Source: Naegleria gruberi (lineage: Eukaryota). From it: a DNA stretch of 64,000 bases. The translations under genes were made by a program, and so were the position numbers. Within the stretch, counting starts at the first letter, position 1. Each line of letters begins with the position of its first letter. This document shows positions 6,221 to 34,497 of the stretch, in pieces. The stretch is taken from NCBI GenBank assembly GCA_000004985.1, contig GG738845.1; one strand, 5' to 3'. The notes under the pieces are model-generated. The model was given only the letters and a program-made list of their open reading frames with translations. It was not told where the DNA came from and made no database searches.

Positions 6221-6435
6221 TTTTTTTGTAAATTGTTTTGGCGGGAAATTTCGTTACATTGATGATTTCCTATGAGGATTGAAACAACTCATGATGATTT
6301 TAAATTGAGATGAGTTGATGAAATTTTCTTTAATAAGTTATTGATTTGTTTAATTTGCTCTTGTATGCTGGTGGTTAGAAGAGTTCCAATATATGACATT
6401 ATTCAATAGTTTATTTAAACTTTCTAATAAAAATG

Positions 6436-7038
6436 TTATAAATCATGTAAAGCATTTTTAAAAGGTTCTTCGTCTAAAGCCTTACTACCAATTGTAATAT
6501 CACTTTTAATAGCATTAATTAAATCATCTAAATTGTCATATTTTTCCATATATCTAATAAAGCCACAAATAGAAATAGTTAAATTTTCTCCATAAAAATC
6601 AGAATTAAAATCATGCAATAAATGTGGTTCAATAGTTTTCTGTTCATTTTGAAAATGTGGATTGTTACCAATACTAATAACTGTTTTACAAGTTATTCCT
6701 CTTATTTTAGCATATCCTATATAAACACCCATTTCGATTTGTGATAATTCTTTACAATTTTCAATTGGTAAATTCGCTGTTGGAATTCCCAATAATTTTC
6801 CTCCTCTTCCAAATCCTTTAATTACTTCTCCTGTTATTTTAATAGGTTTTTCAATCGGAATTACATTGTGTATTCCTATTATAATAAAAATTAATAGGAA
6901 TAATTTGTTTATATAAAAAATTTAATAATGTAACATTTCCGATGATTATTAAAATGATGATTACTCATCAATAATTTTTTTACTGTACATACTCTTTAAT
7001 AAATGATTGGGTATAGTACAAAGGGTGGAAGTTGCCAT
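6436..7038 (-). CDS. rfk: Riboflavin kinase (flavokinase). Exon 1 7038..6993 (46 nt, MATSTLCTIPNHLLK + 1 nt), intron 6992..6877 (116 nt, GTATGT...TTATAATAG), exon 2 6875..6436
   Basis: Exon 2 encodes (R)IHNVIPIEKPIKITGEVIKGFGRGGKLLGIPTANLPIEN...ISIGNNPHF...DFYGENLTISICGFIRYMEKYDNLDDLINAIKSDI, which carries the GFGRGxKxLGIPTAN and NPxF riboflavin-kinase motifs. The minus-strand frame has no ATG between the acceptor and an upstream in-frame stop. The ATG at 7036-7038 (aaaaaaaATGG) plus a GTATGT donor at phase 1 restores the frame. Confidence 0.75.
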
Positions 7039-7277
7039 TTTTTTTGTTTGAAAAGGTTCATTCCGATGAGTCGGATATTTGTAGAGCATATTGTTCCGTA
7101 ATATAGCCTCTGCAGGGTGGATTAATTGCAGTAAATAATTTTAATAAGGATGAGAGAACAGCACAAAATATTTCATAACAATACGAGTGATATTTGAAAG
7201 TTTTACTCTGCAGAGAAGAATTTACAGTGCAAGTAAATGGTAGTATTTTGGAAGAACAAAAATTTTAGCTTTAAAAA

Positions 7278-7982
7278 ATGTCAGAAGTGGACCGTGAAAC
7301 TAAAGTGAGAAAGGAGGTTTTGCGAGTGTAGGTATTAATTTCATCATCATCAACAAATATTAATAATGATCATTATTATTGTGTGGAATGAACAAATTGG
7401 AATCTATAGATTTAATTTGAGGAGAGACAATTTTCAAACTTTACTAGAATACAATGATTATTTGGAAAGGGTTGAGGATATTAGTATGTGTTTTATAATA
7501 ATATATATTTGTTAATCATCATGACAATAGTCTTTGATCTTGCCTATTCAAATGATAATGAAGTTAAATTAAAAAGACAAAAGGAAATGGATGATTTTAA
7601 ACATAATAACAAGACTCTTATCGCTAAAAACAGAGCACTTGCCGAGAATGAATACAAACAACAAATTTTGGAGAAGGAAAAGAAGGAGGCAGTAGAGGAA
7701 GAAAGAAAACATAAGGAATCCCAACTCAAACACTTGAGAGAAGTAACAGTGCAAGAGAAACAAGAAGAAAAGAATGCAACTACAAATTTCCAAGTACCAC
7801 TGGCAATGCAAATGGGATTGAATCAAAAGAGACAGCCAGCTCCGAAAATGATTGCTCAAACAGGAGTTATCTATGCAACTTTACCTCCCGAAGAACAGAG
7901 AAGATACGAAGCAGCAGCTGGTTACACTCCTTCCTTTGTCATGCAGAGAGCTAATCAAGAAGCTTACACTCTTGTTTTGTAA
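7278..7982 (+). CDS. Hypothetical small charged coiled-coil protein. The main ORF is 7488..7982 (ATG at 7521). A possible short 5' exon 7278..7325 (MSEVDRETKVRKEVLR) would join across a 159-nt intron (7326..7484) in phase 0
   Basis: The ORF is KLKRQKEMDDFKHNNKTLIAKNRALAENEYKQQILEKEKKEAVEEERKHKESQLKHLREV...YEAAAGYTPSFVMQRANQEAYTLVL. The upstream ATG at 7278 (aaaaaATG) lies in the same frame and is interrupted by a stop that a GTGTAG..TTAG intron would remove. The exon join is speculative. Confidence 0.3.
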
Positions 7983-17242: not shown

Positions 17243-19327
17243 TTATTGTTGAATCTTTTCCTTGACAACCTCAAATATTTCATAAAGAGTGTCCCAATCA
17301 GGATTAATAAAGTAACACCACCTACATGTCCAATCCATTTGAGTAAAATACAACCCTCCAAATATAGCAAAATAGGAGAACAATAAGCCAGCGCTGACAA
17401 TTCTGACCCACAATGTGAATTTTCCCACCCTTCTCGTTTTTTCACTACAACAAAAGAAGCAACAGCAAAAGAATGCAGAGCATGCATATAATAGTTTGAA
17501 AGGTTTTGATTTTGAGAAATTCTTCCACTTGGAGGGTTTTCCATTCTCCAAATCCAAGTTTTCCTCCCCATCTTCATTACTAGAATTTCCAAGAAGTTTT
17601 CTCCTTTGAGGTGTCTTATTGTTCAAATCTTTCTGTTGAGCTGCTTGTTCTTCATATGGATTTGGATGTCTCATTCGTGGAATGAAAATCATTGTGGATA
17701 AGAAACCAACAAGTAATCCTCCAACGTGAGCAAAATTATCAATCCAAGGAATTAATCCAACAATTACCTGAGCGACAACTTGAATGGTAATTAGAATGAA
17801 ATCTCTTTTTGGACTTGGCATGTACCTCCAATTCATCCATAAATCTGCATAAATGCCTCCGAGAATTCCAAATAGAGAACTTGAGGCTCCAACTGTGACA
17901 ATTTCTGGAAGAAAAAGAGCACTCAATAGATTGCCACCAACACCACTAATGAGATAAATGAAGCAAACAAAGATACATCCCCAATGTCGTTCAAGTGGGA
18001 GCATGACTGACATTTGCCACATCATATTGAGGCACAAGTGAACTATTCCACCATGAAGAAATATTGGAGTGAGTAATCTATAGACTTGCCAATTGGGAGA
18101 AATAATCAAAGTACCTTGTTTGGCTCCCAATTGCACAAGAGTTGCTTCTGGTGGGCCAATTAATGGATTGACCAAGATGGACTCAAGTCCACCTAATCCA
18201 ACACTCACTGCAAACATTATTATTTGAACAATGGTCAATCCAATTGTGAGGAATGGTGTCTTTTTGTGTTCCTGATTGACAGTTCTATTGACAAGGAATG
18301 GATTTTTACTGTCTTTCATGAACTTGCTTGAAAAGTAATTGGAAACAAAGTTTTTGGATGGTTTCTGGAGGAGAACGTCATCTTGTAAATCATTTTCATC
18401 CATTACATCACCCAGAGATTGTCCATTTCCTCTTTCAAACATCAATTCTGGTGTTTCACTATTGGAATTCGATTTGCCCTTATCCTGTTTTTGAAATCCA
18501 AAAGAGTTAATTTCCTGTCTCATTCTCTTAATCTTATCATCCCATTTCTGCTTTCTTTTGAGTTGCTTAACTTGTTGTGGACTTTGTCTCTTTGGGTTGC
18601 TTGTTGGAGATGAACTTCCTTGATTCCTAGGAGAATCGTGAAGATTGAGTGGGGATGGCATTGGTGAGGAGGGAATGAGATTCCTCGTTGAGGATGCATT
18701 CGATACAGGTGATGAATAATCCACTGCACTTGGAGATTGTGATAAAATCGAAGAGTTGGAAATATTGAGTGGACCAGCACTTTGTTCCTTTAACAATTTT
18801 CTCCTAAAGAACCCTGAGAGTCCACCACCAGAATGTTTCGATTGTTGTTGTGGAGCGAGTTCTCTGGTTTTCTTTTTGGGAGTGGAATTTGCAGAGTTGG
18901 ATTCAAGATCGTTGTGGAGTGGAATTTCTTCAATTTCATCAGTCATTACCATGTCCATCAGTTCCAACATGATTGAATCGGGTCTTCTCACTCGAGGCAG
19001 GGAAGAGCTACTGCTTCTGTTTGATGACTCATTCACTCTGAGAGCTGAATAGGAGCCAGGTATACCATCAGTGTTGTTATTTACATGGTGTTCATTAGAG
19101 GAAGATTGTGGAATACTTGATGATGAAGAAGATGACGGAGGTTTTGGAACTGGCCTCAGACTAATGACATTCTCTGTAAGCTCCACAGAGATGACATCTT
19201 CAGAGGATGAAACTGATGACGAGTTTGATGTTGTAGTTGGAGGTTTATGAGAACTTAGGGAAGAGAAGGTAACACTATTCGATGGAAATGCAAATGAGTA
19301 GTTGGTACTAGTATTCGTTGAGTGCAT
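17243..19327 (-). CDS. Rhomboid-family intramembrane serine protease with a long Ser-rich N-terminal region
   Basis: Rhomboid motifs are present: LLTPIFLHGGIVHLCLNMMWQ (HxxxN), GASSSLFGILGGIYADL (GxSx active-site region) and FAHVGGLLVGFL (AHxGG). Six to seven predicted TM helices occupy the C-terminal half. The ATG is at 19325-19327. Confidence 0.75.
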   Translation of the reverse strand: MHSTNTSTNYSFAFPSNSVTFSSLSSHKPPTTTSNSSSVSSSEDVISVELTENVISLRPVPKPPSSSSSSSIPQSSSNEHHVNNNTDGIPGSYSALRVNESSNRSSSSSLPRVRRPDSIMLELMDMVMTDEIEEIPLHNDLESNSANSTPKKKTRELAPQQQSKHSGGGLSGFFRRKLLKEQSAGPLNISNSSILSQSPSAVDYSSPVSNASSTRNLIPSSPMPSPLNLHDSPRNQGSSSPTSNPKRQSPQQVKQLKRKQKWDDKIKRMRQEINSFGFQKQDKGKSNSNSETPELMFERGNGQSLGDVMDENDLQDDVLLQKPSKNFVSNYFSSKFMKDSKNPFLVNRTVNQEHKKTPFLTIGLTIVQIIMFAVSVGLGGLESILVNPLIGPPEATLVQLGAKQGTLIISPNWQVYRLLTPIFLHGGIVHLCLNMMWQMSVMLPLERHWGCIFVCFIYLISGVGGNLLSALFLPEIVTVGASSSLFGILGGIYADLWMNWRYMPSPKRDFILITIQVVAQVIVGLIPWIDNFAHVGGLLVGFLSTMIFIPRMRHPNPYEEQAAQQKDLNNKTPQRRKLLGNSSNEDGEENLDLENGKPSKWKNFSKSKPFKLLYACSAFFCCCFFCCSEKTRRVGKFTLWVRIVSAGLLFSYFAIFGGLYFTQMDWTCRWCYFINPDWDTLYEIFEVVKEKIQQ

Positions 19328-21302: not shown

Positions 21303-23198
21303 ATGATTTGCAAATGGCGCCAAAACATGTACAAAAAAATGTTTCAATTCCCTCAGAGCAGAGAAGATTTCATGCTCTTTGTTCAGCAGGTGGCGAGGGA
21401 GGATGTAAAGAAGTGTCTGGCTGGTATCACAACCACTCATCCCGAGTTGGTGCAACAATTTGTGAGTGTTTCACCAAAGCAACAACCCTCTCCGACACTT
21501 TATCAACAACCTCCTTTCATACAACAGCAACCTGTAATATCTAATAATCAACCATCTTCATCTCCTCCTCCAAAATTCTCCTCTTATTCAACCACACCAG
21601 CAACTAGTAATCAGGAATATACATCACATCTTTCTAGAAATGTCTCAACGAATCAAAATACAGCTCCTTCTCAAACTAAGAATAATCCAACACCAAACTC
21701 TAATCATCAACAACATGTAAATACTCCCAACAGATCCAGCACAACAACTCCAAAAACAGTGTCACCCAATAGTAAGCGAGTTCAACCACCAGTAGCTGCA
21801 ACAAATAAATCTGCATTGAAAGACAAGTCGCCCTCGCCTAATGAAAAGGTGAAGAAATCACCAACAGAAGGAAAACAGGTGACAATCTCCGAGAGACTAC
21901 TAAAGCCAACCATATCAATGCAGAAAAAGTTTGAAAAAGGTCAAGTTAAAAAGCCAACTTCTGAAAAACAATTTAAGGACCTAAGAAAGGAGCAAAACAA
22001 GTCAACTTCCTTATTATTAAAGAAGAAACCTATTACTCCAAAGAAGGATGCTAAAAAATCGAGCCCAAAACAAAATATTTCAAAAACTGTCTCTAACGAA
22101 AGTAATATCAGCACAGCAGAAAGGGAACAGGAAAATTCTGAAGACGAATCAAACATTGACAATTCTCAAGAAGAGGAATATCATGAAGAAATTATTGAAA
22201 CCAATTTGGATATTAGTAATATTTCGAATGATCCTTCAGAATCATATCATTCAAATGAATCTCAATCAACAACACCTAAGAAATCTCAACCTGCTTCAGC
22301 AAGTTCTTCACCTAAAAATCAGAATTCTTCCACGAATTCCATCCAACAACCTCCATCACCAAAAATATCACCTAAGAGAGAAGTTTCTCAGCCAGTAATT
22401 GTGAATCAATCAAACAGTGTACAATCCAAACCTTCCGAAAAATCCCTTATTTCCAATCAAACTCAACCCATCAACAGGACAAGTCCAACAAAAAGCAACA
22501 CCACAAATAACAATTCTGAACAGCCATCAATTTCTTCAATTTCAAATCATTCGAATAATCCTCAATACGATCAATTGGAAGAGATGGTTCTTAATGACCT
22601 CCTCAACGAGCTTGTAAGAGAAGAACACTTGGCAAACAAGAAACGAGCTCATCAAGAAATCAAACTGATTGAAAAAAAGAATCAACAAAACGACAAGTAT
22701 GACGAAATTCTAAAGCTATTAACTCAATTAGAACAGGACGAACAGTCGATACGAAAGAGATTTACGAATAAGAATTATTTATTGGACAGCACAATGAATA
22801 GTGAGACAAGTACAAGTACAACAGAGGAGGTGGGCGAGGAGGGGACATATGATGGGCTTGGTGTAGAAACTATCAAAACTATTCAAAAATTCAAAAGAAG
22901 AAACAAGAAATATTTTGAAGCGTTTTGTAGACCTCACGATTTATCTATTGATACTTTAATGCAAGTGTAAGTAATTCTTAATACTTTTTCCAGTTTAAAA
23001 AATTAAAAGAATTGGAGAGGATATTTTGAAGGAGGTTATTGCTGATGTTTGTGACGAATTCTCTGATGCCATGTCAGATATTGTTAAAAACACAGCCGCT
23101 CAAGAATTTGGAATGAATGAAACATCTTCAGATATTTCATCATCAATGAATAGGACAAATGATGAAGACCTTTCTACCACATTAAAATCGTCCTTGTA
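21303..23198 (+). CDS. Hypothetical Ser/Pro/Asn/Thr-rich low-complexity protein with a C-terminal coiled coil. Exon 1 21303..22966, intron 22967..23009 (43 nt, GTAAGT...AAAAG), exon 2 23010..23198
   Basis: ORF-track piece 21303..22970 ends at a GTAAGT donor. A phase-2 splice joins an open 62-codon exon (V)IGEDILKEVIADVCDEFSDAMSDIVKNTAAQEFGMNE...TTLKSSL. The N-terminal region about 50 aa long (EDFMLFVQQVAREDVKKCLAGITTTHPELVQQF) is the only non-repetitive part. Confidence 0.4.
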
Positions 23199-23626: not shown

Positions 23627-26443
23627 ATGGGTTCAGCACTCTCAACTCGGTACCCCTCATCAGGCTCTGAAACATCATCATCTTCGGTAAACCACACCCC
23701 TCGAGAGAGTAGAGTGGTGGTTGTTGCCAAGAGAGCCAATTCAACTCCAAACCTTAAAAGCGACTTGAATGCTTCACCTACAAATTTTTCCTCATCAAAC
23801 AATGTGGCCAATAGTGCCACCACTGTTAATACCTCTCCAACATCTTCAATGAATAATAATATATCACCTTCAATGAATCAATTTAAATTTCCAAGACATG
23901 GAGCGAATGGTTCTCGGTCATCTTCATTCACGAGAAGCATTCATGGAGGTACAATATCAACAGCAACTTCTGCTGTACAGAATGCCAACTCTGGTTCATG
24001 CAATAACATCCCTTATTCAAACAATAATAATTTTGATACAACATCAATGGCATCTATTCAGCCATCAGTTATCACAACAAGTAATATAAAACTTCAAGCT
24101 CATGAATCTGCAATATCATTACTAAGGTTCAGTCCAGGTGTAGCAAGAACTCCATCGCCCGACAATACATCAGATGCTCTAAGCTCACCAAAATCTATTG
24201 AACAATTAGTCGATAATACCCACATTTTTACAACAAGTAATCCAAGTATCGTAAGTTCTATTGGAAATAATCAGTCTCCTTCCCCTCCTACATTAAGCTA
24301 TTCCAACACTCCAACAGGAACCACGATAAGTCCTTTTAATAGTGGAAGTTGTTCCACTCCTCCTGTTCCTTCTGTTTCCACCCCACCTACTGTCACCTCT
24401 ACTTCATTGCCTCCAATTCACCCTCAAACAATTTCTGGGTTTAATAGTGTTTCAAGTCCAAATAATGTCAATTCTGCCTCCAATACTGCCTCTCCAACTC
24501 ATTTCACATTTCCTTCACACACTCCAACTCTTTATCCCATTCAAACGGAGAGCAATTCTTTACCGAGTATTGACAGAGTATCTACTCCTAATAGATATAG
24601 GCATATTCCACCGAATGCTTTTGCAGCTTTTAATTCAAACAGAAGAGGATCAGTCACTAATCCTATTGTACCTGTTGCTATTGTTGAAAATAACAATTCA
24701 GGGACCTCACATTCAATTGAAGTGACCAATTCTTTTTCGTCTCTTTCACAATGGGGCGGAATTAATGAGGAAATTATTCTTCCTGAAACACAGAAAATGA
24801 ATGAATACAATAAGGAACTTAAAAAACAGGTTAAAAGCACCATTAGTCCAGAGGATTTAACTAGATTGGAAATTGGTGACAATAGCGATATTCTCATTCA
24901 AATGCTTCTTTATAATCCAATAGCAACAGTAATCACAGATTTGGACGGGAATATTATTGTGATGAACGAACCCTTTAAGCAACTATTCAGAGTGGATGAT
25001 CCAGAAACCATTACAAGCATTTCAATATTCATTCCTAAAGAATACAGAAAATTTCATGAAAAGATTCTTAGAAAATATAAGAAAAAGAACAGACCAAAGA
25101 TTAAGAGAGTAACGTTGGGATTAACACAATATGGTGACAAAATTCCAATATCCATATCAGTCACCTCTTCTGAGCTTCAAAGTTCTGGAAAACCTGTCTA
25201 TATTTGTTTTATCAAGGATCTTACAAGTGAATTCAAACTTAACACCCTAGACGTCATGTATCAAAATGTTACAGGACTTTCTTCTATTCCTATCATTGGT
25301 ATAGACCAAGATTGTAGAATTACATTATTTAATCATGCAGCCGAAGAGACTTGGATGATTAGTAAAACAGAGGTACTCGAAAATAATGTTAAAATTCTAA
25401 TGCCAGAGGCAACAGGAAAGGTGCATGACAAATTTGTGACTGAGTATATTATTGGTAAAAGAGAAAAATCAGTCATTGACAAAGTTAAGCAAGTCATTGG
25501 AAGAAGAGTTGGAAATGGCAAAGAATTCCCACTAGAAATTAAGGTGGCTGAGGTTAAGCACGAACTCAACAACAAGAGATCATTCGTTGCATTTTTAAGA
25601 GATTTAACAGCTGTCATGACTGCAAGAGAGTTTCAGTTGACTCTTTACCCAGAAAAAGTTGTAAATATGTTAGAGTCAGGAGAAAGAACTATTCACCATC
25701 ACCACACTTGTGCCAGTGTTTTGTTTTGTGATATTGTTGGTTTTACAGAAATATCTAGACAAATGGAAAGTAATGAATTGGTGATGATTTTGGATGAAAT
25801 TATTTCAATGTTCGACAATCATCTGTTAAGCAAATACAGAATTGAAAAGATTAAAACAATGGGTGACAATTATATGTGTGCAACTGGACTGGATGACAGT
25901 ACTGACCATGCGAATAATATTGTTGAGGCTGCTATTGAAATGCAAAAATTAATGCATGAATTTAATGAGAGACATGCCGAATTGAGACTTAGATTTCCAG
26001 ATCATTGCAACAATTTTGGACAAGTTATTTCTGTAAGAGTTGGTGTTAATTCGGGAGATTTAGTAGCAGGTATTGTTGGTAACAGAAAACCAGTTTATGA
26101 TGTTTTTGGAGATAATGTCAATCTTGCCTCAAGAATGGAAAGTTCAGGAATTGAATCACAAGTCCAAATCACTCCAAAAACATATAGCTTATTGAAAAAT
26201 GAATTGAAACAATATTTTACAATAAGAAGGGATAACAAGGTTAAAGGTATTGGTCTAATGGATACGTACATTACAAATCTCTCCCCCGAAAGTTTTGATA
26301 TGAAAAGTGCAAGAATTAATTCTCGTCACGCTCATCAAAACTCTGGAATACCTAATATTGGAGATATTGATGAGCATTCATTCTCTCTAACATCCACTTC
26401 CATTGAAGACGATATTGATGGAGTTGAACATTCGAATTTATAA
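23627..26443 (+). CDS. N-myristoylated PAS-PAS class III adenylyl cyclase (single CHD catalytic domain), 938 aa
   Basis: The N-terminus MGSALSTR carries the N-myristoylation consensus Gly2/Ser6. A long Ser/Thr/Pro/Asn-rich linker follows. There are two PAS-like segments (LIQMLLYNPIATVITDLDGNIIVMNEPFKQLF... and VTGLSSIPIIGIDQDCRITLFNHAAEETWMISKTEVLENN...). The cyclase domain reads TCASVLFCDIVGFTEISRQ...YRIEKIKTMGDNYMCATGL...VRVGVNSGDLVAGIVGNRKPVYDVFGDNVNLASRMESSG. The Lys in EKIKT and the Asp in YDVFG indicate ATP specificity. Confidence 0.8.
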   Translation: MGSALSTRYPSSGSETSSSSVNHTPRESRVVVVAKRANSTPNLKSDLNASPTNFSSSNNVANSATTVNTSPTSSMNNNISPSMNQFKFPRHGANGSRSSSFTRSIHGGTISTATSAVQNANSGSCNNIPYSNNNNFDTTSMASIQPSVITTSNIKLQAHESAISLLRFSPGVARTPSPDNTSDALSSPKSIEQLVDNTHIFTTSNPSIVSSIGNNQSPSPPTLSYSNTPTGTTISPFNSGSCSTPPVPSVSTPPTVTSTSLPPIHPQTISGFNSVSSPNNVNSASNTASPTHFTFPSHTPTLYPIQTESNSLPSIDRVSTPNRYRHIPPNAFAAFNSNRRGSVTNPIVPVAIVENNNSGTSHSIEVTNSFSSLSQWGGINEEIILPETQKMNEYNKELKKQVKSTISPEDLTRLEIGDNSDILIQMLLYNPIATVITDLDGNIIVMNEPFKQLFRVDDPETITSISIFIPKEYRKFHEKILRKYKKKNRPKIKRVTLGLTQYGDKIPISISVTSSELQSSGKPVYICFIKDLTSEFKLNTLDVMYQNVTGLSSIPIIGIDQDCRITLFNHAAEETWMISKTEVLENNVKILMPEATGKVHDKFVTEYIIGKREKSVIDKVKQVIGRRVGNGKEFPLEIKVAEVKHELNNKRSFVAFLRDLTAVMTAREFQLTLYPEKVVNMLESGERTIHHHHTCASVLFCDIVGFTEISRQMESNELVMILDEIISMFDNHLLSKYRIEKIKTMGDNYMCATGLDDSTDHANNIVEAAIEMQKLMHEFNERHAELRLRFPDHCNNFGQVISVRVGVNSGDLVAGIVGNRKPVYDVFGDNVNLASRMESSGIESQVQITPKTYSLLKNELKQYFTIRRDNKVKGIGLMDTYITNLSPESFDMKSARINSRHAHQNSGIPNIGDIDEHSFSLTSTSIEDDIDGVEHSNL

Positions 26444-26496: not shown

Positions 26497-26808
26497 ATGC
26501 AACAAGTTGATGATAATTCATCGGATGAATATGATGACATTCACTTGGTGTTCGACATTCCGGATTTTAATTTAATTGAAAATTTAAAATTTGAAAAGTA
26601 TTCAATTATTGGGATGGACACTGATAGACCAATGGTGAAAATCGACAATTTTATATTTGAAGGAAAATTTGAAAATTTACTATCGGATACTGCTATTTGT
26701 GTTGAACAATATCAATCGGACGACCATCACCATCATAAACCGACTGTTATTTCCACAAGAACTATATTAAAATTGAACAGAGTATTAATTGGACCAAAAA
26801 AGCTTTAA
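26497..26808 (+). CDS. TFIIIC subunit 6 (GTF3C6 / tau55-related) homolog
   Basis: IHLVFDIPDFNLIENLKFEKYSIIGMDTDRPMVKIDNFIFEGKFENLLSDTAICVEQ aligns with human GTF3C6 QLVLVELSGIIDSDFLSKCENKCKVLGIDTERPILQVDSCVFAGEYEDTLGTCVIFEE. Confidence 0.6.
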   Translation: MQQVDDNSSDEYDDIHLVFDIPDFNLIENLKFEKYSIIGMDTDRPMVKIDNFIFEGKFENLLSDTAICVEQYQSDDHHHHKPTVISTRTILKLNRVLIGPKKL

Positions 26809-26983: not shown

Positions 26984-28192
26984 ATGAGCAACAACCAACA
27001 AGGAAATTACATTAATTTTCGGCCTTCATCATCAAATAATGGTGGCGGAGGTAGTTATGGTGGATCATCATCATCATCCTCCTCTAAGAAACAACACAAA
27101 TATCCAAAACGTCTGAGTCAAAATCAAGAAAAGACTAAATCATCATCAGGAAGTGAAAATATTTATCGACCACAACTTGCTGCACCAAGCAATGCACCAC
27201 TTCCATCAGCAGAAGAAATGTATAATAGTAGAACTAATCAAGATAGAGACACTAGAAACAAATCACCTATTAAACCGTTAAGAAATTTCAACAATTGGGT
27301 TAAAGGAGTATTGATCCATAAATACGTACCAACACAATCAACAGTTTTGGATATTAGTTGCGGAAAGGGAGGTGATTTATTTAAATATCACTTTCGTAAT
27401 ATCAAGAATTATGTTGGTGTAGATATTGCTCTTTCATCTCTTGTAGATTGTATTAACAGATATAATGAAAATTCAACACAATTTAAATTTCCAATGTCTC
27501 TAGTTCATGCTGATGTAGGAAGGGTATGTATTTTGATTTATTTATTATTTTGAACTTTTTAGAGATCAATTGAATCAGCTTTACCTAGAGGACTGCTCTT
27601 CGATGCTGTCAGTTGTCAATTTGCTGTTCACTACATGTTTGATGCTGAAGAGCATGCTAGAACTCTCTTGAGAAACGTTTCTGAGAGATTGAAAATTGGT
27701 GGTAAATTTATTGTCACAACGTCAGATGCCTATGTTCTTGTAAAAATGTTAAGGGCAGCTCAAGGCCTTACTCTTAAGAATGAGGTGTTCGAAGCAACTT
27801 TCCATTGCACTAGTGAAAAATCATTCCCTCAAACATTTGGTAATCGTTATGATTTCCAATTAGTAGATGCTGTTGATAGATGTGCTGAATATCTTGTTCC
27901 TCCAAAACATTTCATTGATTTGGCCAAGGAACATAATTTGTCCCTTGTTGAACATTTGAATTTCCATGATTTTTATCAAAAGTATGGCAGTAATCAAGAA
28001 ACTAAGGTAAATGTTAAACCAGAACTCAAATTGGAAGGTATGACAGAAGATCAATGGACTGCCATCTATTTGTACAGAGCTTTTGTTTTTGAAAAGATTG
28101 GAGATGACACCTCACTAGTTCAAGATTATCAATTTAATCAACCTTCAGGATATAGAAAACTTTCTGAATCTGACATTATCTCACTTAAATAA
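26984..28192 (+). CDS. rnmt: mRNA cap guanine-N7 methyltransferase (RNMT/Abd1). Exon 1 26984..27523, intron 27524..27562 (39 nt, GTATGT...TTTTTTAG), exon 2 27563..28192
   Basis: LRNFNNWVKGVLIHKYVPTQSTVLDISCGKGGDLFKY (the SAM-binding VLDLGCGKGGDL motif), then FDAVSCQFAVHYMFDAEEHARTLLRNVSERLKIGGKFIVTTSDA, FGNRYDFQL and WTAIYLYRAFVFEK. All are collinear with human RNMT. The phase-0 splice joins ORF-track pieces 26984..27553 and 27635..28192. Confidence 0.85.
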
Positions 28193-28393
28193 ACACCCTA
28201 GTATTTTGTTAACTTGAACTTCAATTCTAAATTAAAACCATCAAGACCATTTAATATCCACGACAATTATAACCTACAACAACCTTCATACAGAAAACAA
28301 CTTTATTTTTACCTCAAGGTTCACCTTTGTAGTTGAAATAAAGTCATTGAGTGCACTTTGAAATCTCTATCAACAAGTAAGAAAAAAAAAACA

Positions 28394-29278
28394 ATGAGCA
28401 AGAACTTCAACTTTAGATCTGAGAAAGTGTCGTCATCCAGTACTGCTTCCACCAGTGGTAGTAGCAGTGGCAACAAGAAGGATGTTACCAAGACAAGTTC
28501 TATGTTTAAATCGACCAAGCCAACTGAAAATAATTCAACAACCACCACTATTACATATAAGGACATGCCAATAACTTTCAAAAAGGAAGATGTCGAAGTG
28601 ATATCGAACAGTGGCATTGTTCTCATCAAGACTTTTAGAAATCATCCAAACCTCCAACAAGATTTAATTAATTACTGCCTCAGTGCATTGAGAGGAAATG
28701 AGGAGGGCATAACTGGAACTGAATTTCCTACCGATGAAACAACCTTTCAAAAGTGTTTCCTCGACATTCCATTCGAACAATTCAACTCTAAATTTGCCGA
28801 CATTATTTGTGGAGCAGCCATGAAAGTAGCCAAAGAACATTGCAAAATATTACAAGACTATCAAGATGATTTCCGTATAGCTCAACTATGCTACTATACC
28901 AATAAGGGAAAGCTAGGATGGCACAGAGATAGAATTAGTGGATTAACCCCAGAGGAGCAACATTTAATAGTAAGTCCTGTGGTATCCATGTCTTTAGGCA
29001 ATGATTCTATATTCAGTTACAAACTCAATACTATCAATGAAACCACTGGAAAATTAGAATATGGAACGGAAGCCATCGATCTTCAATTGAAATCTGGAGA
29101 TATTCTCATCTTTGGAGCCACTCAACGAATGTTCTATCACTGTGTTAAAAGAATTATTCCATCAACCAATCACCACAAACTGGATATGGACGGATTGAGT
29201 GGGAGAATTAATATCACACTAAGGGAGGGAACTTACTATCCAGAAAACATTGGTGCTCCAACTGCAAACTTGTTTTAA
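28394..29278 (+). CDS. AlkB-family Fe(II)/2-oxoglutarate dioxygenase (nucleic-acid demethylase or repair enzyme); subfamily not assigned
   Basis: GWHRDRIS (the HxD iron ligands), PVVSMSLGNDSIFSY, GDILIFGATQRMFYHCV (the second His) and RINITLRE (the 2OG-binding Arg) are collinear with E. coli AlkB (LHQDKDE...PIVSVSLG...GDVVVWGGESRLFYHGI...RYNLTFR). The ATG is at 28394 (aaaacaATG). Confidence 0.7.
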   Translation: MSKNFNFRSEKVSSSSTASTSGSSSGNKKDVTKTSSMFKSTKPTENNSTTTTITYKDMPITFKKEDVEVISNSGIVLIKTFRNHPNLQQDLINYCLSALRGNEEGITGTEFPTDETTFQKCFLDIPFEQFNSKFADIICGAAMKVAKEHCKILQDYQDDFRIAQLCYYTNKGKLGWHRDRISGLTPEEQHLIVSPVVSMSLGNDSIFSYKLNTINETTGKLEYGTEAIDLQLKSGDILIFGATQRMFYHCVKRIIPSTNHHKLDMDGLSGRINITLREGTYYPENIGAPTANLF

Positions 29279-31263: not shown

Positions 31264-34200
31264 TTAATCACTAATGACATATTCCTCTGGCTCTTCCTCG
31301 TCATAGGATTCTTCACTATCAAACTCTTCATCTTCAGACGATTCAAACACGTCCTTCTTGTTATTATCGAATTCTTGATTTTCTACCTGTTTGAACTTGT
31401 TGTAATCCAATCGATTGACCATGAGGGATTGTTCTTCCTCTTCTTCACTAGGGGAGGCACTCGAAGCATCTTCTTCTGCTGGTCTTGAAACTCTCACAGT
31501 CTTTTGGCCATATTGTGAACGAGGAGGAACGTAATCATTGGTAACTGTTTGTTTCACACCCATTTCACTTTCACTACTGGTTGTGGATTCATCGTCTTCA
31601 TCAACCATCTTTTCAGGTATTTGCATTTTGTTTGGAGGTAAATAGAGTAAATCTTGTTTTTCAACACTTGGTAGCAAGTGTTTTCTGTGTTTACCAATCC
31701 ATTTAGGAGAGGCTGCATCAAACAGAGAAGGAATAGTAAACGTTGAAGCCTTGTCATTTTGATCCAACCACGATTTAAATGATGTCAATTGGTTAATTAC
31801 CTTCAATTGATTTCCATTCTTTGAGAAAATTGGTTGGTTGATACGTCTACCACCCATTTTCAAAAGTGGATTCTTCTTTACATCTGCCGTATTTTGATCT
31901 AATTTAACCTTTTGAATTGGTGGTAAAATATTTCCAATAATTGCCAACAAGTTATTATTGTTGAATTGCAATGACAAATGATAGGCATCAATATAATTAC
32001 TATTCATAATGTAATAGCTTAACAATAATTCATTCTTCTTCTCTTTCTTCAAATATTGTTCAATCCACAAACTTTCCATTTCATCAAATGGGAATATAGA
32101 AAGCAAATCAATGAAACAATTTCCAATCAAGGAGTAGTAAAGCATACAGTAGAATGTTCTTCTCTTCTCACTTTCATCCTCCATACTTCTGCAATAATCA
32201 AAAGCCAAGTGATACATATCATTAGTTAAATATATTAAGACTTGAATATTGGAATCAATTGAATACTTCGATGAAGTGGTTATATCCATGTCGGAAGTGT
32301 TCGAAGTAGTTGAATCAGACAAAATGTTTAACAAACGCTGTGCTGAATTAAATGAGCAAGATTTGATTAAAATACTGAGTATACTTGAAACCCATTCATC
32401 CAATTCACTGAAAGAACTTTCGCTATTGTTAATAAATAAGTTCGAAAGGTAATGAATAGCTTGATTAAGAATTGAGTCTTGGGTACGTTTAGTGTCCAAC
32501 AGCCATAATCCAACAGCAAAGTGTTGATATGGAGCTGGAATGTTGAATTCCTTAGCATACTTATTTAAAATTGAAACGTCATTACCATTTGAATGTGAAT
32601 GGTTATTATCAATAATTAAATAGAATATAATTAAATGTTTGAGTTGGAGTGAAATATTACTATTATAGATTTGTAAAATGAAATTTTTCAAATCTTTTGG
32701 TGGATATTCTACTTGGCATTTCTCTGCCATATGTTCTATTAAAAAGTTTTTAGTGTTAGTAACATTATGAGTAGGTACCATATCGCTGTCAACACTAGTA
32801 AGATTCATAATATTCAAAATAGAATTGAATTCATCTTCACTAACATTGATCTTGTTGATAGGGAATGGTTGTTCTTTTCTTTGATCCCACTCGGTTTGTA
32901 ATTGGGTATAATTGTAAATATTAGATGTCATTGGTAATAAACCATTTTGAATTAACCATATCATGGTTTTAGCATATTCCACCTTGAAGGTGATAGTCTC
33001 CTTATATTTTACTAGGCTAGGAGTATAGTCATCACCAACATTTTCAATTAACTTAGCTCTATGAATTATTGATTGAATAAGCAAACATAAGGTTTCAAGT
33101 TTGCGAATTGATTTTTGTAACACCTTTTTGCATTCCTGTAACACAAGTGGAGGAGTTGTACGATTTGTATTTTCAAGTAATTGTTGTAAATTTTTTTCCA
33201 ATTCAGAAAATTCGTATTCTTGTGTATTCTTGATCCAAATAGTAATATCCTTAATATCGTGGACGATAAATCTTTGTTTAATACTTTGACTTGTACTCAT
33301 TGGAGCATCGTTATTGAATGGTAATATCAAATCCTCTTGATTTAATACAGTTCCTTCGATATATTCTACCAATGTTGATATTAAATTATTATTGTACAAA
33401 TCTTCGAACAAGTTGTTCATGTTAGATCTGTATTGATGTAATAATTTTTGTAAGGAAGGATTGGCTATCAAGGTATTGTCATTTTTCATTGTGATAGTAT
33501 GAATAGATTGATTTGTCAATACACTAATCTCCAGTCTTGTCAAGTTATTTGACTTATATTGAACGTAATCATGAACATGAACATCCAAGATATTACAATA
33601 CAAATTTTCAATGTCTATACATGCTAAACTAGACTCTAGTTGATCAGTTAAAATCCAAATATTCAAATTGAATATGAGTAATTTGACACTACCTCCATCT
33701 TGTAGTAAAATCAGAGAAGAATACTTGTCAATATTAACTAATTTAACTTGAACCAATTGTTCAGCATAATCTCTCAAGTCAATATATTGCTTAGATTGAT
33801 ATGATTTAAAGTAATCAACAAAATAAAACATTACAAGTTCGTTTGCCTCTGTTCCAACAAGAAGAGTAAAATCATGTTGTTTGCCAATATTATTAATTGA
33901 AATACTTGTAATACTATCATTGCACAATTGTTGAGTAAATACTTTCTCTAATAAATTATTCAATATCTTGTAAAATATAATCTTTCCACTTTCAAATCCT
34001 ACAATGATTAAATCCTTTTCTTTGCTATAATAAATACTAGTTGGATTATCAAGAGGTAAATATTTAAAATTAAAATCATGATCCATAAGACCTATACCAT
34101 TATTTGTTAATACTACAAGGTGATTTTCAACAGCCAAACAATTATTAATTTCATAATCAAGATTAAAATGTCTTAATTTTCTACCACTAGATAAATCAAT

Positions 34201-34497
34201 AGTAAATAATTCCTTTTCCTTTGTAAAACAACAAAGAATCTCTCCAGCACTATCACTAGGTGAATAATAACAACAAGTATTAATATCGGATGGTGAATAA
34301 AATGTTGCAACAACCAATTTGGTCTCGTTATCAACAATCTTTACTTGTCTCCCTTCAGTGATCACAAAGGAAACAAAACCATCTGATGTTATTCTTCCTT
34401 GTTGAGCATTCTTCACTCCCGGAATTTCCCTTCCCAAACACAATTCATAGGGAAGCCTCATAGATAATTGATGAGTAGCCAATGAAGGAGTGGTCAT
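31264..34497 (-). CDS. Large (1077 aa) beta-propeller plus alpha-solenoid protein with an acidic tail, possibly a Nup120/Nup160-family nucleoporin or another vesicle-coat-like scaffold
   Basis: Intron-free minus ORF with ATG at 34495-34497. The N-terminal 400 aa show WD-like strand patterns (VVATFYS, LVVLTNNG, LIIVGFESGKIIFYK, TLLVGTEANELVMFYF). The C-terminal part is alpha-helical. The protein ends EEDASSASPSEEEEEQ...ESSEDEEFDSEESYDEEEPEEYVISD. The functional assignment is a guess. Confidence 0.35.
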   Translation of the reverse strand: MTTPSLATHQLSMRLPYELCLGREIPGVKNAQQGRITSDGFVSFVITEGRQVKIVDNETKLVVATFYSPSDINTCCYYSPSDSAGEILCCFTKEKELFTIDLSSGRKLRHFNLDYEINNCLAVENHLVVLTNNGIGLMDHDFNFKYLPLDNPTSIYYSKEKDLIIVGFESGKIIFYKILNNLLEKVFTQQLCNDSITSISINNIGKQHDFTLLVGTEANELVMFYFVDYFKSYQSKQYIDLRDYAEQLVQVKLVNIDKYSSLILLQDGGSVKLLIFNLNIWILTDQLESSLACIDIENLYCNILDVHVHDYVQYKSNNLTRLEISVLTNQSIHTITMKNDNTLIANPSLQKLLHQYRSNMNNLFEDLYNNNLISTLVEYIEGTVLNQEDLILPFNNDAPMSTSQSIKQRFIVHDIKDITIWIKNTQEYEFSELEKNLQQLLENTNRTTPPLVLQECKKVLQKSIRKLETLCLLIQSIIHRAKLIENVGDDYTPSLVKYKETITFKVEYAKTMIWLIQNGLLPMTSNIYNYTQLQTEWDQRKEQPFPINKINVSEDEFNSILNIMNLTSVDSDMVPTHNVTNTKNFLIEHMAEKCQVEYPPKDLKNFILQIYNSNISLQLKHLIIFYLIIDNNHSHSNGNDVSILNKYAKEFNIPAPYQHFAVGLWLLDTKRTQDSILNQAIHYLSNLFINNSESSFSELDEWVSSILSILIKSCSFNSAQRLLNILSDSTTSNTSDMDITTSSKYSIDSNIQVLIYLTNDMYHLAFDYCRSMEDESEKRRTFYCMLYYSLIGNCFIDLLSIFPFDEMESLWIEQYLKKEKKNELLLSYYIMNSNYIDAYHLSLQFNNNNLLAIIGNILPPIQKVKLDQNTADVKKNPLLKMGGRRINQPIFSKNGNQLKVINQLTSFKSWLDQNDKASTFTIPSLFDAASPKWIGKHRKHLLPSVEKQDLLYLPPNKMQIPEKMVDEDDESTTSSESEMGVKQTVTNDYVPPRSQYGQKTVRVSRPAEEDASSASPSEEEEEQSLMVNRLDYNKFKQVENQEFDNNKKDVFESSEDEEFDSEESYDEEEPEEYVISD

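What the first reader, a model, noticed from the sequence alone, without database searches (positions are those of the whole stretch)
23627..26443. Myristoylated PAS-PAS adenylyl cyclase, a sensor-cyclase architecture not found among the classical dictyostelid cyclases
The single-CHD class III cyclase has substrate-defining Lys (EKIKTMGD) and Asp (YDVFGDNVN), which predict ATP specificity, and both metal-binding Asp residues are present. Two PAS-like domains and about 380 aa of low-complexity Ser/Thr/Pro/Asn sequence precede it. An MGSALS N-terminus matches the N-myristoylation consensus. PAS domains commonly bind heme, flavin or small ligands. This would therefore be a membrane-tethered candidate redox, gas or light sensor making cAMP as a homodimer. 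The known D. discoideum cyclases (ACA 12-TM, ACG, ACB/AcrA, sGC, GCA) have different architectures.
Basis: partly seen in the sequence, partly recalled or inferred. Interest (0 to 1): 0.6.

Follow-up and report, generated by a model that had tools for sequence, protein, structure and literature searches.

The report
Naegleria heme-PAS sensor adenylate cyclase
The gene is real, but it belongs to the amoeboflagellate Naegleria gruberi, not a slime mould; it encodes a cAMP-making enzyme whose two sensor domains closely resemble the heme-based oxygen sensor of bacterial FixL, so it is a good untested candidate for a direct oxygen-to-cAMP sensor.

Summary
Window 23627-26443(+) is one uninterrupted 938-aa ORF: an MGSALS N-terminus, about 400 aa rich in Ser/Asn/Thr/Pro, two PAS domains, and one class III cyclase domain carrying all six catalytic residues and the Lys/Asp pair that predicts ATP use.

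The framing is wrong. The protein is identical to Naegleria gruberi NAEGRDRAFT_45237 (XP_002683265.1, "predicted protein"), so the comparison with Dictyostelium cyclases does not apply.

The new point is that both PAS domains are of the FixL/DosP heme type. Each alone matches only heme-PAS structures in the PDB. The proximal heme histidine (H477, H600) is invariant in all 14 PAS domains of the family examined. The model superposes on BjFixL heme domains at about 1.3 A. Bacterial kinases annotated as FixL carry the same double His-bearing PAS module.

Orthologs exist in N. fowleri and N. lovaniensis. They keep the MGSxxS start, while the linker between it and the PAS domains is unalignable. Relatives with a cyclase domain occur in diatoms and in uncultured organisms, at least two of them eukaryotic.

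Best reading: a soluble homodimeric adenylate cyclase, possibly myristoylated, gated by heme ligation (most likely O2). Heme binding, the ligand and the direction of the response are all untested. I rate it a new variant of a known kind, of moderate interest.

The parts
23627..26443 (+). Complete intron-less CDS, 938 aa plus stop. Equals Naegleria gruberi NAEGRDRAFT_45237 / XP_002683265.1 / UniProt D2UYQ8.
23627..23650 (+). N-terminus MGSALSTR: Gly2 and Ser6, the N-myristoylation-type start.
   Evidence: Conserved as MGSSVSVG in N. fowleri and N. lovaniensis. Two distant homologs also start with MG.
23651..24826 (+). Low-complexity Ser/Asn/Thr/Pro-rich linker (aa 9-400), presumably disordered.
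   Evidence: Composition. No significant similarity to the N. lovaniensis N-terminal ORF. 32% identity to N. fowleri against 57.5% in the PAS domains. Half of the allelic differences (5 of 10) fall here, the rest in the C-terminal tail.
24884..25231 (+). PAS1 (aa ~420-535), FixL-type.
   Evidence: Alone it matches only FixL and DosP heme-PAS chains in the PDB (E 1e-7). AF2 gives a PAS fold.
25055..25057 (+). His477 codon. Aligns with the proximal heme ligand His200 of BjFixL. Arg494 (25106-25108) aligns with the distal Arg220.
   Evidence: Lies in the F-alpha helix of the model.
25259..25615 (+). PAS2 (aa ~545-663), FixL-type, ending in the DLT motif.
   Evidence: Pfam PAS 552-659. Alone it matches only FixL/DosP significantly (E 9e-10). 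Foldseek to BjFixLH gives TM 0.91-0.93, rmsd 1.3 A, 32-33% identity.
25424..25426 (+). His600 codon. Aligns with BjFixL His200. Lys621 (25487-25489) sits at the Arg220 position and Glu606 at the Arg206 position.
25616..25699 (+). Short helical linker plus a cyclase-transducer-like helix-Pro-helix (MTAREFQLTLYPEKVVNMLESGERTIHH). Pro675 is invariant.
   Evidence: Pro invariant in 49 aligned cyclases. Helices at aa 666-673 and 676-683 in the model. Linker length 14 aa against 24 aa in most relatives.
25700..26272 (+). Class III (IIIa-like) cyclase homology domain, aa 692-882. Residues: D702 and D747 (metals), K743 and D825 (adenine), N832 and R836 (transition state).
26273..26440 (+). Acidic, poorly conserved C-terminal tail (aa 883-938).
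   Evidence: Low pLDDT at its start.

Best explanation
NAEGRDRAFT_45237 is a cytosolic adenylate cyclase with no transmembrane segment, possibly N-myristoylated. It most likely works as a homodimer with two symmetric active sites, because each chain supplies both metal Asp residues, the adenine-specifying Lys/Asp pair and the transition-state Asn/Arg (shown from sequence).

Its regulatory module is a tandem of two FixL/DosP-type PAS domains. Each is predicted to hold one heme b through a proximal His on the F-alpha helix (H477, H600). This is inferred from homology. Binding or release of a diatomic ligand, most likely O2 (alternatively NO, CO or a change of iron redox state), would reposition the FG loop and the basic residue at the BjFixL Arg220 position (R494 in PAS1, K621 in PAS2). 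The change would travel through the DLT motif, a very short helical linker and the Pro675 transducer element into the cyclase dimer, altering cAMP synthesis (inferred by analogy with FixL, DosP and sGC).

The conserved MGSxxS start, followed by a long disordered spacer, would let the enzyme sample membranes reversibly (inferred). Whether ligand binding raises or lowers activity cannot be predicted.
For: - Identity and gene structure.
- Cyclase domain and catalytic residues: Pfam E 9e-50. Residue-by-residue alignment to AC5/AC9 C1 and C2. Positions confirmed. The cyclase-domain fold matches Rv1625c, AC9 and others at TM 0.8.
- Heme-PAS assignment:
  - Each PAS domain searched alone against 177,635 PDB sequences matches only FixL (E 1e-7 to 9e-10) and DosP/EcDOS among significant hits. 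No LOV, PYP or other PAS chain reaches E<0.001.
  - The proximal His column is invariant in 14 of 14 PAS domains from 7 family members at 22-57% identity. The Arg220 position is Arg in 10 of the 14 and another polar residue (Lys, His or Gln) in the remaining four (Lys in N. gruberi PAS2). The distal hydrophobic positions 236 and 238 are kept.
  - The tandem-PAS model's best PDB matches are DosP and the FixL PAS-A/PAS-B dimer. Single BjFixL heme domains superpose at rmsd 1.3-1.4 A.
  - Both His residues lie in the F-alpha helices of the models.
  - Bacterial kinases labelled FixL by JGI match 84-95% of the tandem module (E down to 5e-66) and also carry His and Arg in both PAS units.
- Conservation: orthologs in N. 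fowleri and N. lovaniensis show 57.5% identity in the PAS domains (vs N. fowleri) and 67% in the linker plus cyclase domain (vs N. lovaniensis), against 32% in the N-terminal region (vs N. fowleri). A second N. gruberi-like allele has all 10 differences outside aa 304-898.
- N-terminus: MGSALS / MGSSVS is conserved, and it lies in one continuous ORF with PAS1 in N. fowleri.
- Precedent for O2-to-cAMP signalling in Discoba: HemAC-Lm of Leishmania, which uses a different heme domain by my recollection of the original paper (PMC4534343).
Against: - No experiment exists. No paper in the held library mentions this gene.
- Heme binding cannot be read from sequence with certainty.
- In PAS2 the BjFixL Arg206 position is Glu606 and the Arg220 position is Lys in N. 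gruberi, Gln in N. fowleri and His in N. lovaniensis. O2 stabilisation as in FixL is therefore doubtful for PAS2.
- Naegleria PAS1 has an FG loop three residues shorter and lacks the Ile215/Ile216 equivalents.
- AF2 confidence is lower (70-80) around the F helix and FG loop, and no cofactor was modelled.
- A myristoyl group without a second membrane signal gives only weak membrane affinity (established knowledge). The modification itself is unverified.
- The residue numbering of BjFixL rests on my recollection that His200 is the ligand. It is consistent with the 140-270 construct length seen.
Confidence: 0.55

Rival explanations
1. It is a PAS-PAS adenylate cyclase, but the PAS domains carry no heme. 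They would bind another small ligand, or serve only as dimerisation and protein-interaction modules. The conserved His would then be structural or would bind something else.
For: Several secondary FixL heme-pocket residues are not kept: Glu606 at the Arg206 position, a variable residue at the Arg220 position in PAS2, and a shortened FG loop in PAS1. PAS domains often signal without cofactors (PMC7729029). The Leishmania PAS-PGK responded only weakly to heme.
Against: The His is invariant in 14 of 14 family PAS domains and present in 976 of 1154 related PAS units, with Asp following it in 849. The only significant PDB sequence matches are heme-PAS proteins. The model fits BjFixLH at 1.3 A.
Confidence: 0.28
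2. It is heme-based, but the physiological signal is not O2. It would be NO, CO or cellular redox state (ferric/ferrous iron), as has been argued for some heme-PAS proteins.
For: The Arg220-equivalent that favours O2 in FixL is replaced in PAS2 (Lys, Gln or His in the three Naegleria species). Two hemes per chain could serve different ligands.
Against: PAS1 keeps Arg494 at the Arg220 position in all Naegleria orthologs, with Lys483 at the Arg206 position and Arg482 adjacent. The closest characterised relatives, FixL and DosP, are O2 sensors.
Confidence: 0.12
3. It is a light-regulated (LOV or other flavin-PAS) cyclase, comparable in logic to the BLUF cyclases NgPAC1-4 of the same organism.
For: Naegleria has four photoactivated BLUF cyclases (PMC5608697). 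LOV-PAS tandems appear among the weaker fold matches.
Against: There is no GXNCRFLQ/NCRF cysteine motif. No LOV chain reaches significance in the sequence searches. LOV structures rank below DosP/FixL at 11% identity.
Confidence: 0.02
4. It is a guanylate cyclase, or a catalytically dead pseudo-cyclase.
For: Pfam PF00211 does not separate adenylate from guanylate cyclases. UniProt labels the orthologs 'Guanylate cyclase domain-containing protein'.
Against: The substrate pair is Lys743/Asp825, not Glu/Cys. All metal and transition-state residues are present and conserved in the N. lovaniensis ortholog and other relatives. The apparent loss in the N. fowleri model is a splice-annotation error, because the genome encodes the segment.
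Confidence: 0.03

Closest known systems
FixL (Bradyrhizobium japonicum / Sinorhizobium meliloti), including double heme-PAS FixL-type kinases
   Same: The sensor module is homologous. There is tandem PAS, an F-alpha proximal His, a basic residue at the Arg220 position, the LMPxxxxxxHD motif, and a DLT motif leading into a helical linker. Bacterial FixL-annotated kinases align over 84-95% of the tandem module and have His in both units.
   Different: The output is a class III cyclase domain, not HisKA/HATPase. The host is eukaryotic. A long disordered N-terminus with an MG start is added. Arg206 and the FG loop are not fully conserved.
DosP / EcDOS (E. coli heme-PAS phosphodiesterase)
   Same: A heme-PAS tandem controls a cyclic-nucleotide enzyme. 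It is the top structural match for the tandem PAS model and gives sequence hits for both PAS domains.
   Different: DosP degrades c-di-GMP through an EAL domain. By my recollection it has heme only in PAS-A with a distal Met ligand; this was not checked here.
HemAC-Lm (Leishmania major oxygen-sensing adenylate cyclase)
   Same: It has the same proposed logic, in a related eukaryotic supergroup: a soluble heme protein makes cAMP in response to O2 (PMC4534343).
   Different: By my recollection of the original report, its heme domain is a globin, not PAS. No globin domain is detected here.
Soluble guanylate cyclase (NO receptor)
   Same: The PAS, helical linker and cyclase-domain arrangement is shared. 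sGC chains are the best whole-model fold matches. It is heme-controlled.
   Different: In sGC the heme sits in an H-NOX domain that is absent here. sGC is a heterodimer with one active site and is GTP-specific.
Rv1625c/Cya and mammalian AC C1/C2 (class IIIa cyclase domains)
   Same: The catalytic domain has the Lys/Asp substrate pair and the transducer element with its invariant Pro. Like Rv1625c, the complete residue set is in one chain.
   Different: Those are membrane-anchored by 6 or 12 TM helices. This protein has none.
NgPAC1-4 (BLUF photoactivated cyclases of N. gruberi) and mPAC (LOV cyclase of Microcoleus)
   Same: They are sensor-domain-plus-cyclase one-component enzymes, and NgPAC1-4 occur in the same organism. 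Cyanobacterial cyclase domains, Microcoleus among them, are the nearest prokaryotic catalytic relatives.
   Different: The sensors are flavin-based light sensors. No flavin motif is present here.

Membership tests
Class III nucleotidyl cyclases (cyclase homology domain) | Cyclase homology domain (Pfam PF00211) above the curated threshold | tested here: met
   169 bits against a cutoff of 21.9, aa 692-882. The fold matches solved cyclase domains at TM ~0.8.
Class III nucleotidyl cyclases (cyclase homology domain) | Two metal-binding Asp plus transition-state Asn and Arg in the same chain (homodimer-competent) | tested here: met
   D702, D747, N832 and R836 align to the AC C1/C2 residues.
Adenylate (not guanylate) cyclase, class IIIa | Substrate-specifying Lys and Asp (Glu/Cys in guanylate cyclases; Thr/Ser replaces Asp in class IIIb) | tested here: met
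   K743 in EKIKTMGD and D825 in YDVFGD.
Adenylate (not guanylate) cyclase, class IIIa | Measured cAMP synthesis | not testable with these tools
   Needs an enzyme assay.
FixL/DosP heme-PAS subfamily | PAS fold | tested here: met
   Pfam PAS and PAS_9. AF2 models with pLDDT 78-88. Foldseek to BjFixLH gives TM 0.91-0.93.
FixL/DosP heme-PAS subfamily | Proximal His on F-alpha (BjFixL His200) | tested here: met
   H477 and H600. Invariant in 14 of 14 family PAS domains. Located in the F-alpha helices of the models.
FixL/DosP heme-PAS subfamily | Distal/FG-loop Arg (BjFixL Arg220) and propionate-binding Arg206 | tested here: inconclusive
   PAS1 has R494 at position 220 and K483 at position 206. 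PAS2 has K621 at 220 and E606 at 206. The Naegleria PAS1 FG loop is 3 aa shorter.
FixL/DosP heme-PAS subfamily | Bound heme b and ligand-dependent spectra | not testable with these tools
   Needs purified protein.
FixL sensor histidine kinases (orthology) | HisKA and HATPase_c output domains | tested here: not met
   No such Pfam hit; a cyclase domain is present instead. Only the sensor module is shared.
LOV photosensors | Flavin-adduct Cys motif GXNCRFLQ | tested here: not met
   The motif is absent. No significant LOV sequence hit.
N-myristoylated proteins | Gly2 after the initiator Met, a small residue (Ser/Thr) at position 6, no Pro at position 7 | tested here: met
   MGSALST. First ATG of the frame. 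MGSSVSV in N. fowleri and N. lovaniensis.
N-myristoylated proteins | Actual lipid attachment and membrane localisation | not testable with these tools
   Needs metabolic labelling and a G2A mutant. There is no second membrane signal (Cys or polybasic patch) in aa 1-45.
   100% identical to a Naegleria gruberi protein on a 1.56-Mb contig. The neighbouring ORFs encode typical eukaryotic proteins (rhomboid, TFIIIC, cap methyltransferase, ELYS).
Globin-coupled or H-NOX-coupled cyclases (HemAC-Lm, sGC) | Globin or H-NOX heme domain | tested here: not met
   No such Pfam domain at E<=1.

The most novel reading that the evidence does not exclude
This would be the founding member of a protist family of heme-PAS-coupled adenylate cyclases. 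The family would be a eukaryotic, direct O2 (or gas) to cAMP sensor, assembled from a bacterial double-heme FixL sensor module and a class IIIa cyclase domain. It is present in Naegleria, including the brain pathogen N. fowleri, in diatoms and in uncultured protists. The same heme-type PAS unit is amplified to 13-32 copies per protein in Euglenozoa. This would be an oxygen-sensing route unrelated to prolyl-hydroxylase/HIF systems, and a heme sensor class (PAS to adenylate cyclase) not found described in the held paper library.
Probability: 0.35. Interest if true: 0.7.

Novelty: new variant of a known kind. Interest (0 to 1): 0.45.

Why it matters
If the prediction holds, Naegleria would have a one-protein link between ambient oxygen (or NO/CO) and cAMP. 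Direct heme-PAS gas sensors have mostly been studied in bacteria. The one eukaryotic O2-responsive adenylate cyclase I found cited (Leishmania HemAC-Lm) uses, by my recollection, a globin instead.

Naegleria moves between oxic water, anoxic sediment and, for N. fowleri, host tissue. From memory of the genome paper, which I could not retrieve, it is thought to switch between aerobic and anaerobic metabolism. An O2-gated cyclase would be a concrete, testable entry point into that switch.

The protein is small, soluble and intron-less, so the test is cheap. It could also serve as a gas-switchable cAMP tool.

At the same time the finding is not exotic. Sensor-cyclase fusions are abundant in Naegleria and in bacteria, both parts are well-known families, and the gene is already in public databases as an uncharacterised protein.

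Tried and rejected
- Dictyostelid origin: rejected by an exact match to N. gruberi.
- The Naegleria genome paper (Cell 2010) could not be retrieved. Statements about its cyclase counts therefore come from a later pangenome paper or are marked as memory.
- A single-sequence search with the PAS-PAS segment in the word-indexed database returned only one hit, a limit of the index. It was repeated with a profile and with the exhaustive representative search.
- BLASTP of the N-terminal 408 aa against the N. lovaniensis upstream ORF found no significant similarity. The linker is not conserved; only the first six residues are.
- The AFDB Foldseek library was unavailable, so N. gruberi paralogs and the UniProt taxonomic spread of the architecture could not be listed.
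- The first prokaryote-genome scan failed because the alignment was too diverse. The second kept only the 80 best of at least 586 cyclase-domain relatives. None had a FixL-type PAS next to the cyclase domain. This is suggestive, but it does not prove absence from bacteria. P0241, a collinear 30%-identical homolog on a 50% GC contig with PGA_cap and Lactamase_B-Rhodanese neighbours, may be bacterial.
- LOV/flavin reading: rejected.
- Transmembrane anchoring: rejected.
- Second PAS or cyclase gene in the window: none.
- Literature searches for the locus tag or for a heme-PAS adenylate cyclase found nothing.
Full report
**1. What is in the sequence**

Window 23627..26443 (+) is a single ATG-initiated ORF of 938 codons with no interruption. 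The frame opens only five codons upstream of the ATG, so MGSALS is the first possible start.

Pfam finds one cyclase homology domain (PF00211, aa 692-882, E 9e-50). It also finds PAS (PF00989) in two stretches, with PAS_9 and a weak PAS_8 hit. The first 400 residues are 53% Ser/Asn/Thr/Pro. No 19-residue window approaches transmembrane hydrophobicity.

**2. Whose gene it is**

The protein is 100% identical to 'predicted protein [Naegleria gruberi]', locus NAEGRDRAFT_45237, XP_002683265.1, UniProt D2UYQ8, on a 1.56-Mb contig.

- The neighbouring ORFs encode typical eukaryotic proteins: a rhomboid, a TFIIIC subunit-6-like protein, an mRNA cap methyltransferase that appears to be split by an intron, an AlkB-like oxygenase and ELYS.
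- The window is therefore heterolobosean, not dictyostelid.
- Naegleria species are reported to carry at least 81 cyclases (PMC9928731) and 50-80 PAS proteins (PMC10468136).
- N. gruberi has four characterised BLUF photoactivated cyclases (PMC5608697).
- No paper in the held library mentions this locus.

**3. The catalytic domain**

HMMER alignments to mammalian AC5 and AC9 place the query against both C1 and C2 halves.

- FCD702IVGFT and IKTMGD747 supply the two metal-binding Asp residues (the C1 role).
- K743 and D825 are the adenine-specifying pair, and N832 and R836 are the transition-state residues (the C2 role). Positions were confirmed.
- One chain thus holds the full set, as in homodimeric class IIIa enzymes such as Rv1625c, which is also a close fold match.
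- Lys/Asp, rather than Glu/Cys, predicts ATP. This rests on established knowledge of class III cyclases, not on an assay.
- A Pro (P675) about 27 residues before the first metal Asp is invariant in all 49 aligned cyclases. In the model it sits in a helix-Pro-helix (aa 666-683). This corresponds to what I recall as the cyclase transducer element of class IIIa/b enzymes.

**4. The PAS domains are of the FixL/DosP heme type**

- Sequence. Searched alone against all PDB sequences, PAS1 gives significant hits only to FixL, with DosP/EcDOS just below significance. PAS2 gives significant hits only to FixL (E 9e-10) and DosP/EcDOS. No LOV, PYP, Aer, HIF or other PAS chain reaches E<0.001.
- Key residues. 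I aligned 14 PAS domains from seven family members (22-57% identity) with Bj and Rm FixL.
  - The proximal heme ligand column (BjFixL His200) is His in every sequence: H477 and H600 here.
  - It is embedded in the FixL-like motif (I/L)(L/F)(M/I)P-x6-H(D/E).
  - The Arg220 column is Arg in every PAS1 but one (Lys in P0096), including R494 here. In PAS2 it is Arg, Lys, His or Gln, and K621 here.
  - The distal hydrophobic positions 236 and 238 are kept.
  - Arg206 is only partly kept: K483 in PAS1 and E606 in PAS2.
  - The Naegleria PAS1 FG loop is three residues shorter.
- Structure.
  - AF2 models have pLDDT 87.9 for aa 403-902 and 78.0 for aa 415-672. They show two PAS folds with both His residues on the F-alpha helices.
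  - The tandem model's best PDB matches are DosP and the FixL PAS-A/PAS-B dimer (E ~1e-16).
  - Single BjFixL heme domains superpose at rmsd 1.3-1.4 A, TM 0.91-0.93 and 32-33% identity.
  - The whole model also resembles the PAS, coiled-coil and cyclase part of soluble guanylate cyclase.
- Bacterial counterparts. A profile of the tandem module retrieves bacterial histidine kinases that JGI annotates as FixL. They cover 84-95% of the module at 28-31% identity (E down to 5e-66). These kinases have the His and the Arg220-type Arg in both PAS units. The double-heme layout therefore has a bacterial counterpart.
- Other cofactors. [quoted passage not shown] The LOV cysteine motif is absent.

**5. 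Conservation and family**

- N. fowleri (FDP41_007470, 762 aa) and N. lovaniensis (C9374_010461) have orthologs.
- Identity is 57.5% in the PAS tandem (vs N. fowleri) and 67% in the linker plus cyclase domain (vs N. lovaniensis), but 32% in the N-terminal region (vs N. fowleri).
- A second N. gruberi-like allele differs at 10 positions, all within aa 67-303 or 899-917. This is consistent with constraint on the PAS-PAS-cyclase core.
- More distant collinear homologs are P0004, P0005, P0096 and P0241. P0004 and P0005 sit on contigs with eukaryotic genes such as Ras, zf-MYND, WD40 and EMC3.
- The exhaustive profile search found 2,265 cluster representatives at E<1e-30.
  - Eight of the top 150, beyond the family members already recovered, also carry a cyclase domain.
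  - These include the diatom Conticribra weissflogii protein KAL7466838.1 and MMETSP transcripts.
- Among the 80 best prokaryotic cyclase-domain relatives from 185,579 species genomes, mostly cyanobacteria, none has a FixL-type PAS beside the cyclase domain.
  - The fusion may therefore be eukaryotic.
  - The scan was truncated, and P0241 might be bacterial.

**6. The N-terminus**

- N. gruberi starts MGSALSTR.
- N. fowleri starts MGSSVSVG, in an ORF continuous with PAS1.
- N. lovaniensis has an MGSSVSVG ORF 24 nt upstream of the annotated gene, in another frame. It was evidently split off by annotation, or by an intron or frameshift.
- The sequence between this start and PAS1 is unalignable between N. 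gruberi and N. lovaniensis, and its length varies (about 170-390 aa).
- Gly2 with Ser6 and no Pro7 fits the N-myristoyltransferase substrate pattern (established knowledge). Conservation of just these residues supports function.
- There is no Cys and no basic cluster nearby. Any membrane association would therefore be weak or switchable, so 'membrane-tethered' overstates the case.

**7. Mechanism proposed**

Shown from sequence:
- A soluble single-domain cyclase with a complete catalytic residue set.
- A tandem of FixL-type PAS domains with conserved proximal His residues.
- A DLT motif and a helical linker to a conserved Pro element.
- A conserved MGSxxS start.

Inferred:
- Homodimerisation.
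- One heme b per PAS domain.
- Ligand-dependent FG-loop movement, transmitted through a 14-residue linker into the cyclase dimer. Most relatives have 24 residues there, and P0004/P0005 have 20.
- O2 as the most likely ligand, because PAS1 keeps the Arg220-type Arg and the nearest characterised relatives are O2 sensors.

The sign of the response is open. By my recollection, O2 switches FixL off and DosP on.

**8. Comparison with known systems, and novelty**

- It works like FixL or DosP on the input side and like Rv1625c-type class IIIa cyclases on the output side.
- It is not a FixL ortholog, because it has no kinase domains. It is not an H-NOX- or globin-coupled cyclase either.
- The functional analogue is Leishmania HemAC-Lm, an O2-responsive soluble adenylate cyclase, which by my recollection uses a globin heme domain rather than PAS.
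- I found no description of a heme-PAS-coupled adenylate cyclase in the held literature. That library is incomplete.
- The gene has been public since 2010 as an uncharacterised protein, and its Pfam domains are computed automatically.
- I therefore rate it a new variant of a known kind: a new pairing of two well-understood modules, in a eukaryote, with a specific and testable ligand hypothesis.

**9. Verdict**

| Item | Rating |
|---|---|
| Observation | confirmed |
| Interpretation | partly supported (wrong organism and comparators; sensor class can be sharpened to heme-PAS; myristoylation plausible and conserved, tethering overstated) |
| Confidence in the full mechanistic statement | 0.55 |
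| Confidence that it is a PAS-PAS adenylate cyclase | about 0.9 |
| Confidence that the PAS domains bind heme | about 0.6-0.65 |
| Confidence that O2 is the signal | about 0.4 |
| Interest | 0.45 |

Noticed in passing
Related proteins P0127-P0272 (no window coordinates): The tandem-PAS profile hits giant proteins of 2.4-5.5 thousand aa built from 13-32 FixL-type PAS units. Examples are Bodo saltans CUG33156.1 (annotated 'methyl-accepting chemotaxis protein'), a Hemistasia-like transcript, a shorter 602-aa diatom Odontella transcript and many metagenome contigs. Of 1154 units, 976 keep the F-alpha His and 753 keep the Arg220-type Arg. No other Pfam domain was found in those scanned. Arrays of putative heme-PAS domains of this size appear undescribed in the papers I could search.
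   Followed up: partly
L001 5465-7830 (N. lovaniensis) and L003 3001-5433 (N. fowleri): There are annotation problems in both orthologs. N. lovaniensis splits the MGSSVSVG-starting N-terminal ORF (5465-5962) from C9374_010461 (6001-7830); the two parts are in different frames. The N. fowleri model FDP41_007470 skips 'VFGDTVNMASRMESS', which includes the catalytic Asn and Arg, although ORF 5059-5433 encodes it. Both species have an intron after the YD of the substrate-Asp motif that N. gruberi lacks.
   Followed up: yes
window 25616-25699 (aa 664-691): The distance from the PAS2 DLT motif to the conserved transducer Pro is 14 aa in the three Naegleria proteins, 20 aa in P0004/P0005 and 24 aa in diatom and most other relatives. 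The differences are not multiples of seven. The consequence for signal polarity is unknown. N. gruberi alone has a His4 run (aa 689-692) just before the first cyclase strand.
   Followed up: partly
window 23627-26443, allele P0126: A 939-aa near-identical allele from an ENA assembly differs at 10 positions. All lie in the low-complexity N-terminus (aa 67-303) or the C-terminal tail (aa 899-917), and none in aa 304-898.
   Followed up: yes
window 26984-27553 and 27635-28192 (+): Two adjacent ORFs match the N-terminal and C-terminal halves of the mRNA cap guanine-N7 methyltransferase domain. This is evidently one gene with a short intron of about 80 nt.
   Followed up: no
window 26497-26808 (+): A 103-aa ORF starting 54 nt after the cyclase stop codon matches the TFIIIC subunit 6 triple-barrel domain (E 8e-7). 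The gene spacing here is very tight.
   Followed up: no
window 17243-19327 (-), 28358-29278 (+), 31264-34497 (-), 21303-22970 (+): Other neighbours are a rhomboid protease with a ~400-aa N-terminal extension, an AlkB-like 2OG-Fe(II) oxygenase and an ELYS-domain nucleoporin. There is also a 555-aa low-complexity Ser/Asn/Pro/Gln-rich ORF with no Pfam match directly upstream of the cyclase. The RasGEF gene that lies upstream of the ortholog in N. fowleri and N. lovaniensis is not the immediate neighbour here.
   Followed up: no
L004 531-2561 (P0241): A collinear homolog with FixL-type PAS domains and a cyclase domain (30% identity over 481 aa) lies on a 50% GC metagenome contig. Its neighbours are a PGA_cap gene and a Lactamase_B-Rhodanese gene, which could indicate a bacterial host. 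If so, the fusion is not confined to eukaryotes.
   Followed up: partly
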